DNA of 28,161 nt from a virus (Duplodnaviria > Heunggongvirae > Uroviricota > Caudoviricetes). This document shows, piece after piece, positions 18,001 to 21,000 of the stretch. The stretch covers positions 1 to 28,161 of the IMG/VR virus record IMGVR_UViG_2579778529_000004; one strand, given 5' to 3'. The first letter of the stretch is position 1, and the number at the start of each line of letters is the position of its first letter. Position numbers: made by a program.

Positions 18001-21000
18001 ATGATCCACAACAAACAACGCATCGGAAGAAAGCAGACGGCGATATTTTTTTGCTGTCGTGGTTTCCAGATCATCAAAACCATGAAACTTTTTATGTTGC
18101 TGGACTTCTTCAAATGTCACTGGCATGTATCCCCCTTTGCTGCCCGGCGCTGGCGCTTGTGCTTCTCATTCAGCGCCATCAGCCGCGTTTCTGCCTCCTG
18201 CTGTTCCTGTGGTGTCACTTCCCCACATGGCTGGCCTTTCAGGTCGTATCGTACCCCACCAGCAACCAGGGCGCGGTAATAGCGCGGAGACTGCGCATAA
18301 GATGCCAGCGTCGCACGTAATGCCCCCGGCCCGAATGCCAGCCCCCTGACGGCGAGATCCTGCATCAGGTCGTCGAATATCCCCACCTTAAGCGGCTTCG
18401 GTGCTTCCCTGTTGAATAAGTCAGGCCACATCTCAGTGAGGCGGTTAACGCGCCTGCGGTTTTTGCGCTGGCGTTTGGTCATATGCCGCCACGGTGTCAC
18501 CCCTGTGGGCTGCCCTTTGCGGCTCTGCTGTGCGTTCTGATTGCCGGGTATCACTTTATGCGCCGATGTGGTTTTATCCCGCTCTTGCGCCGCCTGCGTC
18601 GTTTTCTGCGGCGTGCCGTAAATGCCTTTCGGTTTTCGGTTAATGGTCAGCTTTGTCATGCCTTCCCCTGTAATTACTCTGTTCGCTGTTGTGAATTAAA
18701 ACGGTATGTTATCCCCGTACAGGTCATCGTGCTGGCCTGTCTGTTGTTTTGCCCTGTTCAGTGCGTCAGTGGCCTGCCCCTGTTGGCCTTTTTTGCCGCC
18801 CGGTCGCGCCGTTCTCGCACTGATTACGCTGTCTGCGATGACCTGCCAGCCCTGCCGCGTTTCGCCGTTCTGCCCTGTCCACTGGCTTACCTGCATGTTA
18901 CCCGCCACGTTCACCAGTTCGCCTTTGCGGTGTTTTGCCAGTGCGTCGGCCTGTCTGCCAAACGCCAGGACGGATAACCACATCGTCGCCGTTCCGTCAT
19001 CTGCCTGGCTGCATGGCAGGGGAACCGCCATACTCGCCATCGCCATTTGTGTTCCCTTGCTGGTGGTCTTTAACTGCGGGTCAGCCACCAGCCGCCCGTA
19101 AGCCGCTATCTGTGCTGTCATGCTGTCTGCTCTCCGGTTTTAACGTTGATGGTTACGCTTGTTTACACCCTTACGGTGAAATTCTGCGGGTTATAATCGC
19201 ACTTTTGCGGGTTATAACTGCCGTTTTGCGGGTTACGTGCGGGTTATTGATTTCCTTTTTATTCATACAGTTAATGCACTTATATACATGATAACCCGCA
19301 TAACCCGCAACTTTTCACCTCACACAGGGGGTTAATCTTCTGCCTCAGGCTGGAACATCAGCACGTAAAAAACATGCTGCTTCCCCCCAATTTTGCCGAG
19401 CGCCTTTTTCTTGTAACGGCGATCGTTACCCGCTTCCAGCATTCCGGCAGCACTCAACGCGCGGGCAAAGTGAGACGGATTAAATCCCTGTGCTATCTCA
19501 CCCTCAAATACATGCGGGAACGTGTAAAAACGGAACTCGTCATCTTCGTTTCTGATACTCCCCTTTCTGTATCCGGCAAGTTCTTTAATCGGTAAATCAC
19601 GCTCGTCGGTATTGGGCCACGGAAGGTATCTGCTGAATCCGAACGACGCTAAAAAAGCTTCTGCCTGTTCAACCATCTGTTTAAATTCCCTGTTACCCGT
19701 GCCGAACTCCTTCACCCAGGCATTAAAATTATGCTGTATGGCATCGCGGCATTCCTGCTCATCCCAGCCAGTAACATGACCTGAAAGCACAAGCGCGGCC
19801 TCCAGTATGGCAAATCGCTCCCCCACACGGTGAACCTGTTCGCCGTAGCTCTCCGGTATCAGGTTGCGCCACCGCTCACGGCATGTCCTTACCGTGTCCT
19901 TTGCCTCCTGCTGGTGTTCTGCCAGCCATTTAACCCACTCACGACCCGCCGCCCCGTGATTTTCTGTCCAGGCATCCTTTAACGCGTCTGCGTGCGCCTT
20001 TCCGGTGCTGTATTCGTGAAATTGCGTGGCTTTTTCCATCGGAACGTTAAGCAGGCGGACAAGCTGCCCCGCTTTGACTTTTATCCCCTCCGTTTTGAGG
20101 AATGTCTCAACGTCCATTTCTCCGGTGCTGATTGCCACCGTGCGCCAGTGTTTGATCTCCCTGTTGCCGCCGTCCTTCGCCCCCTGTAATTTCCCCGAAC
20201 CGTTAAACAGCGTATAGGCTGACGTGGACACCTCCCGCGCGTTTCCGGCCTGGCCTATTTCATCCAGGGGTAAAAGCCCGTCATTGTGTGCCTCTGCTTC
20301 GTTGGCGATACCTAACGCTGTGCCGTACCAGGTCAGCCGCTGCGCGTCCGGCTCTCCCCATAAACTTGATGCGATGTTCTGTGTGGTGGTTTTCCCTGCC
20401 GATGACTGTTCGAAAAGATGTACCCCGAAGCCGTCAGCGCCCACCAGCCCGATTAATGGTGCGGATAACGATACCGCCACACCCAGCATCATGGACGGAT
20501 TACCACCAGCCAGCCGCGCAACGGTATCGCGCCAGCCCTCCGCCGTTCCTGCCACGGAATAGCCATTAACAGCAGCCGTTTTTCCGGTAAACAGGACTGG
20601 CTTTTCGCAATCACCAATGACCGAACCGTCCGGCATGATGTACGCGCCAAAATGCCAGCCCGTTGTTGTGCTTAACTGCCATTCCTCATGGCTTCCGCTT
20701 AACTGCATCCAGTCAGCCAGGATAGCCCTGTATTTACCGTTGGTTGTTACGTTCAGTCCGTGGTCTTTCAGCAACCGCCAGCCGTCACGGTCGCCAATGC
20801 CACCGCACGGAACCGCCATTGTGATGACTTCATGGTTTGCTAATTTTTTCCAGCGCATCACGCGGTAATGCTCTTTACCGATTGTCCCCGTTCCCAGTAG
20901 TTCAAGCGGGGAACATAACCACGTCTCAGGCCGGATAATTTCGCCTGACTGCTTATCCACTTTTGGCGTTACCCAGAAAACACCATCGGCGCGACTTTCA

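What the first reader, a model, noticed from the sequence alone, without database searches (positions are those of the whole stretch)
18117..18659. FinO/ProQ-domain RNA-binding protein encoded in the satellite
The 180-aa protein has a basic N-terminal extension followed by a segment closely resembling the FinO domain of ProQ (PKPLKVGIFDDL...YDLKGQPCGEV...). FinO-family proteins are RNA chaperones. One sitting between replication and capsid genes could regulate satellite or helper transcripts or a small RNA.
Basis: partly seen in the sequence, partly recalled or inferred. Interest (0 to 1): 0.6.

Follow-up and report, generated by a model that had tools for sequence, protein, structure and literature searches.

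The report
Optional FinO-like RNA-binding gene in satellite
The gene does encode a FinO/ProQ-domain RNA-binding protein carried by an E. coli phage satellite, but it is an already-annotated, optional add-on gene whose RNA target and role are still unknown.

Summary
The ORF at 18117-18659 (- strand, 180 aa) matches Pfam ProQ/FinO (E 9e-25, 87 bits against a cut-off of 27). Its AlphaFold model matches only solved FinO-domain structures. The residues that hold the RNA 3' end in those structures are invariant. Its layout resembles FinO: a conserved N-terminal motif, a disordered basic linker, then the FinO domain, with no ProQ C-terminal domain. It still fails the NCBIfam cut-offs for both FinO proper and ProQ proper.

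The gene lies at the end of the replication operon (icd ... primase, origin, ssb, finO-like, orf82, terminator) of a ~14.65 kb capsid-forming PICI. That satellite is inserted in the terL gene of a prophage.

The new result is comparative. The gene is a discrete 554-bp cassette. Near-identical satellites lack exactly 18143-18696, and only 17 of 83 related satellites carry it. It is nevertheless under purifying selection, and relatives occur in about 21% of complete E. coli genomes. RefSeq already names it "ProQ/FINO family protein".

No partner RNA could be identified. Most likely it is a specialised, dispensable binder of terminator hairpins that tunes satellite (or helper) RNAs after induction. 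I class it as a new member of a known kind, of modest interest.

The parts
18117..18659 (-). CDS of the FinO-like protein (180 aa plus stop); identical to RefSeq WP_000164226.1 'ProQ/FINO family protein'
   Evidence: ORF; Pfam PF04352 E=9.2e-25; 100% match and PGAP annotation in E. coli EC416
18615..18659 (-). Conserved N-terminal motif, aa 1-15 (MTKLTINRKPKGIYG)
   Evidence: Nearly invariant in alignment A1. It has the lowest dN/dS of the protein, 0.10. The motif LT[IL][NK]R[KR] also sits at the N-terminus of F-type FinO and of the FinO-like protein of plasmid pSYM9.
18486..18614 (-). Variable, predicted-disordered basic linker, aa 16-58
   Evidence: pLDDT below 50 for residues 11-51; indel-rich in A1; dN/dS 0.36
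18135..18485 (-). Basic helix (TKRQRKNRRR) plus FinO domain, aa 59-175, with pocket residues G93, Y127, R137 and N-cap Arg R115
   Evidence: pLDDT 86-96; Foldseek matches to 3mw6, 1dvo, 7rgt and 7rgu; residue mapping against PMC9674577; invariant columns
18143..18696 (.). The 554-bp cassette (spacer with SD plus almost the whole CDS) that is absent from otherwise 91-97% identical capsid-forming PICIs
   Evidence: blastn breakpoints in L158, L176, L206 and L143; junction sequences
17878..18126 (-). orf82 (phrog_1957, function unknown). It overlaps the FinO-like stop by 10 nt (ATGCCAGTGA), so the two are probably translationally coupled. It is retained in satellites that lack the FinO-like gene.
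17840..17868 (-). Intrinsic terminator that ends the replication/FinO-like operon (AGGCCUGGA-UUUUC-UCCAGGUCU followed by U7). It is a candidate ligand.
   Evidence: -15.9 kcal/mol, z -3.7; compensatory U-A to C-G and G.U to G-C changes among satellites
18696..21455 (-). Upstream genes of the same operon: ssb (18696-19121), origin iterons (19186-19308) and DUF927 primase (19332-21455)
   Evidence: Pfam and PHROG hits; iterons
22218..22559 (-). Start of the operon: sigma70-like promoter (22559-22530) flanked by three GTGTAAGACA operators, a structured leader (22523-22424) and the icd-like gene (22421-22218)
11060..25705 (-). The host element: a ~14.65 kb capsid-forming PICI (int, 2 alpA, bro, icd, DUF4222, pri, ssb, finO-like, orf82, capsid, protease, portal, connector, HNH, terS, terL) inserted in a prophage terL gene

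Best explanation
The ORF encodes a FinO-like RNA chaperone: a FinO domain preceded by a conserved N-terminal motif and a basic, disordered extension. It is an optional 554-bp cassette in an accessory slot between ssb and orf82. That slot is at the 3' end of the replication operon of an E. coli capsid-forming PICI.

Shown here: domain identity, fold, conservation of the RNA 3'-end pocket, operon position, cassette nature, purifying selection and wide distribution.

Inferred: the protein is made together with primase and SSB only after the helper induces the satellite. It clamps the base of a hairpin and the 3'-terminal nucleotides of one or a few RNAs that end in intrinsic terminators, using G93/Y127/R137 and the helix N-cap Arg115. 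This would protect those RNAs from 3' decay. Through its basic N-terminal extension it may also promote sense-antisense pairing.

By analogy with FinO/FinP-traJ, FopA/Inc-repZ and PcnR/repR leader, it would act as a dispensable fine-tuner of an RNA control step that the satellite backbone already has. Candidate ligands are the operon's own terminator (17840-17868), the ylcI-orf59 mRNA terminator (23102-23130, + strand), the two alpA terminators and the icd leader hairpins. The effect would be on the level or timing of replication relative to packaging.
For: - **Domain:** Pfam ProQ/FinO E=9.2e-25. PDB sequence matches are only to FinO-domain proteins.
- **Fold:** the AF2 model has pLDDT 86-96 over aa 60-175. 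The top 26 Foldseek PDB hits are all FinO-domain structures, with target-normalised TM up to 0.86 and rmsd about 2 A. The next hit has E above 1.
- **Pocket residues:** RocC G52, Y87, R97 and N-cap R75 (PMC9674577) align to G93, Y127, R137 and R115. All are invariant or nearly so in 20 homologues.
- **Selection:** dN/dS is 0.10 for the N motif and 0.22 for the core across 53 distinct alleles.
- **Operon context:** the promoter and operators lie at 22530-22600. All genes are co-oriented and tightly spaced. The stop overlaps the orf82 start, and a covarying terminator follows at 17840-17868.
- **Conserved module:** the order DUF4222, primase (of different types), optional ssb, then finO-like recurs in 79 IMG/VR loci and in RefSeq PICIs.
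- **Dispensability:** near-isogenic satellites lack exactly 18143-18696. Only 17 of 83 PICI loci carry the gene. This parallels F, whose own finO is reported to be inactivated by an insertion while finP is kept (from my own knowledge, not checked here).
- **Precedents for FinO-domain proteins controlling replication or transfer RNAs of mobile elements:** PMC9977716 and PcnR in PMC8053102.
- **Small plasmid parallel:** a plasmid with a DUF927 replication protein also carries a full-length relative.
- **Candidate ligands:** five well-formed intrinsic terminators lie in the regulatory and replication part of the satellite.
Against: - No partner RNA was identified.
- Rfam found nothing in the window at E up to 1 and nothing relevant in the leader.
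- Satellites that lack the gene show no other FinO-linked sequence difference, so no dedicated sRNA gene travels with the cassette.
- Synonymous-site diversity gives no sign of an RNA embedded in the cassette.
- The N-cap Ser and two Lys that contribute to hairpin binding in RocC are Gly110, Pro111 and Ala113 here.
- There are no expression or binding data.
- The slot also hosts PerC-type regulators. That fits a cargo role directed at the host equally well.
Confidence: 0.55

Rival explanations
1. The protein is cargo aimed outside the satellite. It would bind host, helper-phage or competing-element RNAs that normally depend on ProQ or FinO, such as type I antitoxin RNAs, phage antisense RNAs or FinP-like RNAs of F-type plasmids. 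This would reprogramme the cell or interfere with rivals rather than tune the satellite's own genes.
For: - The gene is an optional cassette in a variable slot that also hosts PerC-family regulators, which are known as host virulence-gene activators.
- No satellite sequence co-varies with its presence.
- Relatives at 60-80% nucleotide identity sit alone in non-satellite islands next to YagK/YfjJ genes.
- FinO-domain proteins can accept RNAs from other replicons (PMC9977716).
Against: - No own promoter was detected. The gene lies deep in an operon that appears to be repressed until induction, which is a poor fit for lysogenic conversion.
- It has an N-terminal extension. The FinO/ProQ review suggests such extensions may underlie the narrow specificity of the plasmid-encoded proteins.
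- It scores 64.7 bits against a cut-off of 136 for FinO proper, so direct substitution for FinO on FinP is doubtful.
- No PADLOC defence-family hit.
Confidence: 0.25
2. The protein is a replication accessory factor. Because it always follows primase and SSB, it would act on RNA primers or RNA-DNA hybrids at the satellite origin, for example by holding primer 3' ends, rather than on regulatory RNAs.
For: - The position directly after pri, ori and ssb is constant across different primase types.
- A small plasmid pairs a DUF927 replication protein with a full-length relative.
- The FinO domain recognises A-form backbone plus a free 3' end (PMC9674577).
Against: - Satellites with 96% identical primase and ssb lack the gene (L205), so it is not needed for replication.
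- Known FinO domains need a single-stranded 3' tail that folds back into the pocket, not a base-paired primer end.
- To my knowledge no FinO-domain protein has been shown to act on primers; the review passages read describe regulatory RNA ligands only.
Confidence: 0.07
3. The gene is a decaying or functionless remnant carried along by the satellite.
For: It is dispensable. Some copies are frameshifted or truncated (L006; short forms).
Against: dN/dS is 0.10-0.22 in the motif and the domain. Key residues are invariant. Intact copies occur in over a thousand genomes. It has a good SD and translational coupling.
Confidence: 0.03

Closest known systems
FinO of F-like (IncF) plasmids
   Same: The FinO domain is 35% identical over 102 aa. 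The architecture is the same: an N-terminal LT[IL][KN]R[KR] motif, a basic disordered extension with a Trp before a basic helix, then the domain. Both are encoded on a mobile element, and neither appears to be essential to its element.
   Different: It scores 64.7 bits against the NCBIfam FinO subfamily cut-off of 136. It is not on a conjugative plasmid or in a tra operon. No FinP was found by Rfam. The N-terminal regions are not significantly similar by BLAST. The N-cap Ser and Lys are replaced.
PcnR (IncI2 plasmids) and FopA (pCol1B9)
   Same: These are element-encoded FinO-domain proteins that tune replication by binding a leader stem-loop (repR) or an antisense RNA (Inc), according to PMC8053102 and PMC9977716. 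The gene here lies in the replication module of a mobile element.
   Different: The host element is a phage satellite with primase and iteron replication, not an IncI-type plasmid. No equivalent antisense RNA or leader target is shown here. No direct sequence comparison with PcnR or FopA was possible.
ProQ (E. coli/Salmonella chromosomal global RNA-binding protein)
   Same: It is the best PDB sequence match (5nb9, E=5.8e-12). Equivalents of R58, Y70 and R80 are conserved.
   Different: It scores 58.6 bits against the ProQ equivalog cut-off of 127. It has no linker or C-terminal Tudor-like domain (no other Pfam hit). It has an N-terminal extension instead, and it is accessory rather than core.
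RocC (Legionella) and NMB1681 (Neisseria) FinO-domain structures
   Same: These are the best structural matches (TM up to 0.86, rmsd about 2 A). The 3'-nucleotide pocket (Gly, Tyr, Arg) and the N-cap Arg are shared.
   Different: Sequence identity is 27-30%. RocC S70, K71 and K73 correspond to G110, P111 and A113 here. The genomic contexts differ.
ProQ/FinO-like genes noted in other satellites (E. cloacae PICI AVS0889; Vibrio episomal capsid-forming satellites)
   Same: A FinO-family gene listed among satellite accessory or maintenance genes (PMC13612085; PMC13230959).
   Different: Those papers mention the genes only in passing, with no analysis. Sequence relatedness to this protein was not tested.

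Membership tests
ProQ/FinO domain superfamily (Pfam PF04352) | Profile HMM score above the curated gathering threshold | tested here: met
   87.2 bits against 27, E=9.2e-25, covering 104 of 109 profile positions
ProQ/FinO domain superfamily (Pfam PF04352) | FinO-domain fold (helical bundle with a beta-hairpin) | tested here: met
   AF2 gives pLDDT 86-96 for aa 60-175 with helices and two short strands. The top 26 Foldseek PDB hits are all FinO domains; the next hit has E above 1.
ProQ/FinO domain superfamily (Pfam PF04352) | Pocket for the 3'-terminal nucleotide: beta-turn Gly, conserved Tyr and Arg (RocC G52, Y87, R97) | tested here: met
   G93, Y127 and R137 align to them. They are invariant or at least 90% conserved in 20 homologues. 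The residue roles are taken from PMC9674577.
ProQ/FinO domain superfamily (Pfam PF04352) | Helix N-cap motif that binds hairpin phosphates (RocC S70, K71, K73, R75) | tested here: inconclusive
   The Arg is kept (R115). The Ser is Gly110 (invariant), and the two Lys are Pro111 and Ala113.
ProQ/FinO domain superfamily (Pfam PF04352) | Binding of hairpin-plus-3'-tail RNA | not testable with these tools
   Needs EMSA, a bacterial three-hybrid assay or CLIP
FinO proper (IncF fertility inhibition protein) | NCBIfam NF010317 subfamily cut-off | tested here: not met
   64.7 bits against 136
FinO proper (IncF fertility inhibition protein) | Cognate FinP antisense RNA and traJ leader in the same element | tested here: not met
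   No Rfam family, FinP included, matches the window at E up to 1. No tra genes were seen among the ORFs annotated or in the PGAP annotation of the matching EC416 region.
ProQ proper (chromosomal global RNA chaperone) | NCBIfam NF003434 equivalog cut-off | tested here: not met
   58.6 bits against 127
ProQ proper (chromosomal global RNA chaperone) | C-terminal Tudor-like domain after a basic linker | tested here: not met
   The protein ends 5-8 residues after the FinO-domain C-terminal helix. There is no second Pfam hit.
Capsid-forming PICI (host element) | int, alpA and pri plus own capsid, protease, portal, connector, HNH, TerS and TerL; no tail genes; about 15 kb | tested here: met
   Pfam and PHROG annotation. 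Size is about 14.65 kb from the junctions. The description of EcCIEDL933 is in 10.1101/2022.09.08.507074.

The most novel reading that the evidence does not exclude
FinO-like cassettes of PICIs would be a post-transcriptional layer of satellite-helper (or satellite-plasmid) conflict. The protein would capture a specific helper-phage, host or plasmid RNA, or drive pairing of the convergent ylcI-orf59 and bro read-through transcripts. This would commit the satellite to induction or weaken a competitor. It would be the first RNA-chaperone-based mechanism described in a phage satellite.
Probability: 0.15. Interest if true: 0.65.

Novelty: new member of a known kind. Interest (0 to 1): 0.35.

Why it matters
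FinO-domain proteins are studied mostly as ProQ (global) and as a few plasmid regulators (FinO, FopA, PcnR). This work shows a third common home. A FinO-like subfamily sits in the replication module of E. coli phage satellites and related islands, in about one fifth of complete E. coli genomes and with up to nine copies per genome. Natural, nearly isogenic satellites exist with and without the 554-bp cassette. That makes a clean experiment easy: compare their replication, transfer, helper yield and RNA stability. A specific RNA ligand would add riboregulation to the list of satellite-helper interactions. It would also add extra FinO-domain paralogues to the RNA-binding proteins present in wild E. 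coli strains. As it stands, this is a correct and already-annotated domain assignment with no functional data.

Tried and rejected
- **Rfam.** The whole window (E up to 1) and the icd leader (E up to 10) gave no relevant family: no FinP, no C4/CI-like RNA.
- **RNA hidden inside the cassette.** Synonymous-site diversity along 52 alleles shows no depressed stretch. The antisense-strand 'terminators' inside the CDS are weak 5-6 bp stems.
- **The conserved, covarying icd leader as the FinO-specific partner.** The leader is a general PICI backbone feature. Only 17 of 83 leader-bearing loci carry the gene. It therefore remains only one candidate among several.
- **A FinO-linked non-coding segment.** I compared the window with near-isogenic satellites that lack the gene. 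Only 18143-18696 differs.
- **Defence-system membership.** No PADLOC hit for the protein or its neighbours.
- **N-terminal homology to FinO by BLAST.** Not significant. Only a short positional motif is shared.
- **Genome-contig scan (one genome per species).** It returned only two loci, E. ruysiae and E. albertii, so the subfamily is essentially confined to Escherichia at this sensitivity.
- **The prototype EcCIEDL933.** Looking it up by guessed coordinates hit an unrelated prophage. Whether the prototype carries the gene stays unchecked.
- **An exact att repeat of at least 12 nt at the satellite ends.** None found. There is only a short imperfect core, TTACCAA(G/A)A(A/C)AC.
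Full report
**1. Observation**

The ORF at 18117..18659 (- strand) is real. A Shine-Dalgarno sequence, GGGGAAGG, precedes the start codon.

Pfam gives a single, strong hit to PF04352 ProQ/FinO: E=9.2e-25, 87.2 bits against a cut-off of 27, over aa 68-172. phmmer against PDB sequences finds only FinO-domain proteins. These are the ProQ N-terminal domain 5nb9 (5.8e-12), FinO 1dvo (2.8e-11), NMB1681, Lpp1663 and RocC.

**2. The protein**

An AlphaFold2 model built on 20 homologues has a disordered N-terminus, with pLDDT below 50 for residues 11-51. Residues 60-175 form a confident domain with pLDDT 86-96.

Foldseek against the PDB returns 26 hits with E below 1e-4, and every one is a FinO-domain structure: NMB1681, FinO, RocC with and without RNA, and Lpp1663. 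Target-normalised TM scores reach 0.86 and rmsd is about 2 A. The next hit has E above 1.

The RocC-RNA structure paper (PMC9674577) defines two binding elements:
- A pocket for the 3'-terminal nucleotide, formed by G52, Y87 and R97.
- A helix N-cap motif that contacts hairpin phosphates, formed by S70, K71, K73 and R75.

In the HMMER alignments these map as follows. The pocket residues correspond to G93, Y127 and R137, and the N-cap Arg to R115. All are invariant or nearly so in the subfamily. The N-cap Ser and the two Lys are Gly110, Pro111 and Ala113 here. So the 3'-end pocket is intact and the hairpin-contact motif is only partly conserved.

The protein meets neither NCBIfam cut-off: 64.7 bits against 136 for FinO, and 58.6 against 127 for ProQ. 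It has no ProQ C-terminal domain.

Its layout parallels FinO. The N-terminal motif MTKLTINRKPKG resembles MTEQKRPVLTLKRKTEG of F-type FinO, a sequence I verified at 100% in plasmids annotated as FinO. It also resembles MTEPTRPILTIKRR of a FinO-like protein on plasmid pSYM9. A disordered linker follows, then a Trp and a basic helix before the domain. BLAST does not find this N-terminal similarity significant, so it is only a motif-level resemblance.

Across 53 distinct alleles, dN/dS is 0.10 for the N-terminal motif, 0.36 for the linker, 0.22 for the basic helix and domain, and 0.55 for the C-terminal tail. The gene is therefore under purifying selection.

**3. Context in the window**

All relevant genes are on the - strand. 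Reading from high to low coordinates:

| Feature | Coordinates |
|---|---|
| Integrase | 24308-25567 |
| Two AlpA genes, each with its own terminator | 24109-24342 and 23767-24075 |
| Bro-N gene | 23131-23709 |
| Divergent control region: three GTGTAAGACA operators and a YlcI/YnfO gene on the + strand | about 22519-22800 |
| icd-like gene | 22218-22421 |
| Small ORFs and DUF4222 | 21452-22225 |
| DUF927 primase | 19332-21455 |
| Origin-like iteron cluster | 19186-19308 |
| SSB | 18696-19121 |
| FinO-like gene | 18117-18659 |
| orf82, overlapping the FinO-like stop by 10 nt | 17878-18126 |
| Strong intrinsic terminator | 17840-17868 |
| Capsid, protease, portal, connector, HNH, TerS, TerL | 11581-17603 |

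There are no tail genes. This matches the published capsid-forming PICI architecture (10.1101/2022.09.08.507074).

The element is inserted in the terL gene of an HK97/lambdoid-type prophage. The N-terminal terL fragment ends ...ARVNFFTKN at about 25705. The C-terminal fragment resumes ...TKHMNVWVTAES at about 11060. PGAP marks both halves as pseudogenes in strain EC416, whose matching segments are 100% identical to the window. Such helper-embedded PICIs, including a terminase site, are already described (PMC10111431).

The window is E. coli. RefSeq already calls the protein 'ProQ/FINO family protein', WP_000164226.1.

**4. Distribution and the cassette result**

blastn finds relatives in 1168 of 5426 complete E. 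coli genomes. There are 1649 places, all chromosomal, with up to 9 per genome. The three sampled copies at 80-92% identity are all in PICIs with the order DUF4222, primase, optional ssb, finO-like, then PerC or orf82. The three sampled copies at 73-79% are all in CP4-57-like islands next to YagK/YfjJ genes.

IMG/VR holds 79 loci. 18 of the loci held at that point (IMG/VR plus RefSeq) are capsid-forming PICIs and the rest are classical PICIs. The FinO-like gene stays 88-90% identical while the primase is swapped for unrelated types.

In classical PICIs the FinO-like stop overlaps the start of a PerC-family gene (ATGA). In capsid-forming PICIs it overlaps orf82.

The gene is optional. Of 83 IMG/VR PICI loci that carry the conserved icd-leader motif and at least 6 kb of downstream sequence, only 17 have it. 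Four capsid-forming PICIs (L158, L176, L206, L143) are 91-97% identical to the window on both sides yet lack exactly 18143-18696. In them the SSB stop is followed by about 20 nt and then the orf82 ATG. L205 has a PerC gene in the same slot.

The slot between ssb and orf82 is therefore a hot spot for small regulator cassettes. The FinO-like gene is not needed for the satellite's basic life cycle. No other sequence in the satellite travels with it.

**5. Search for the RNA partner**

- Rfam finds nothing in the window.
- The terminator after orf82 is strong (-15.9 kcal/mol, z -3.7) and shows compensatory changes among satellites.
- Four further well-formed terminators lie at 23102-23130 (+), 23161-23194 (+), 24066-24085 (-) and 23733-23758 (-).
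- The leader of the icd operon has three hairpins. Two base pairs switch G-C to C-G in five sequences each, and the last hairpin pairs with the Shine-Dalgarno region. It has no Rfam match. It is part of the general PICI backbone, so it is not specific to satellites that carry the FinO-like gene.
- Synonymous-site analysis gives no sign of an RNA embedded in the cassette.

None of these can be singled out as the partner by computation alone.

**6. Most likely mechanism**

The following are shown:
- a FinO-domain protein with an intact 3'-end pocket;
- an N-terminal extension like those of the narrow-specificity plasmid proteins;
- a position within the replication operon;
- cassette nature, purifying selection and wide distribution.

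The following are inferred. The protein is made after induction and binds the base and 3' tail of one or a few terminator-ended RNAs. It stabilises them or promotes pairing, and so tunes a control step the satellite already has.

This follows the pattern of FinO with FinP-traJ, FopA with Inc-repZ, and PcnR with the repR leader (PMC9977716; PMC8053102). In those systems the RNA belongs to the element's core and the protein is a modulator. Optional presence is compatible with that. A small plasmid that pairs a DUF927 replication protein with a full-length relative adds a weak link to replication modules.

Rivals:
- Cargo that acts on host, helper or plasmid RNAs. The variable slot shared with PerC favours this. 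The lack of an own promoter argues against it.
- A direct role with primers at the origin. Near-identical replication modules that lack the gene argue against it.
- A functionless remnant. Selection argues against it.

**7. Comparison with what is known, and novelty**

The protein is a member of the ProQ/FinO domain superfamily. It is not FinO proper and not ProQ proper. FinO-family genes in satellites have been mentioned only in passing: an E. cloacae PICI in PMC13612085 and Vibrio episomal satellites in PMC13230959. I found no functional study.

The finding is a correct domain assignment that RefSeq annotation already makes. The added value here is threefold: it is FinO-like rather than ProQ-like, it is a discrete optional cassette in an accessory slot, and natural controls with and without it exist. 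I rate it a new member of a known kind, with interest 0.35.

Noticed in passing
window 10328-11068 and 25705-26730 (junctions near 11060 and 25705): The satellite is inserted inside the terL gene of the surrounding HK97/lambdoid-type prophage. The two terL halves read ...ARVNFFTKN | ...TKHMNVWVTAES, with a short imperfect core TTACCAA(G/A)A(A/C)AC at both junctions. PGAP marks both halves as pseudogenes. This helper-embedded PICI arrangement, including a terminase site, is already published (PMC10111431). A 95%-related satellite sits in yifB instead, with a different integrase.
   Followed up: partly
window 22424-22523 (- strand), leader of the icd-like operon: This 5' leader is conserved across mosaic PICIs and folds into three hairpins. 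Two pairs of the middle hairpin switch G-C to C-G in five sequences each. An invariant CUUCUAACCACCAAC follows, and the last hairpin pairs with the Shine-Dalgarno region. There is no Rfam match. The layout (promoter, structured leader, icd) recalls the c4/CI RNA immunity regions of P1 and P4, but that is a resemblance from memory only.
   Followed up: partly
window 22519-22599 and 22621-22800 (+): Three exact GTGTAAGACA repeats flank the icd promoter, next to a divergent YlcI/YnfO-family gene and a 59-aa ORF. In related satellites the repeat sequence changes as a set (GTGTTCAACAC, GTGGCTGACAC, GTGTCCGACAC). This looks like operators with switching repressor specificities.
   Followed up: partly
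window 11346-11499 and 19186-19308: There are two clusters of six TAACCCGC iterons each, with inverted sets flanking an AT-rich centre. The whole window has 14 matches against 0.75 expected. One cluster is the expected origin after the primase gene. The other lies downstream of the satellite terL, near the right end. Why there are two is unexplained.
   Followed up: partly
window 17603-17840 (- strand), between the terminator and the capsid start: This 240-nt region has a promoter-like TTTACA-16-TATGTT and a G+C-rich, structured stretch. It is 97-100% identical in all capsid-forming PICIs examined, even where the adjacent capsid protein is only 68% identical. It could be a late promoter with a leader, or a packaging (cos) site. 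A 22-nt piece recurs at 11426-11447.
   Followed up: partly
window 18126-18696 slot; loci L158, L176, L206, L143, L205, L007-L009: The gap between ssb and orf82 (or the late region) is a hot spot for small regulator cassettes. It holds the FinO-like gene alone, PerC alone, FinO-like plus PerC with overlapping stop and start codons, or nothing.
   Followed up: yes
locus L001 23399-24607 (E. coli EC416), corresponding to window ~23000-23130 (between the YlcI/YnfO gene and bro-N): The copy in strain EC416, whose matching segments are 100% identical to the window, carries an IS1414 insertion of about 1.3 kb. The IS lies between the YlcI/YnfO gene and the Bro-N gene and is absent from the window.
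   Followed up: no
window 23767-24075 and 24109-24342 (- strand): There are two tandem AlpA-family genes, each followed by its own strong intrinsic terminator (24066-24085 and 23733-23758). The published PICI description read here lists a single alpA.
   Followed up: no
locus L090 (plasmid pSYM9, NZ_CP060068.1) 6977-7618: A 12.7-kb non-mobilisable E. coli plasmid pairs a DUF927 replication protein with a 213-aa FinO-like protein. That protein aligns over nearly the full length (29% identity) and shares the N-terminal LTIKRR motif.
   Followed up: partly
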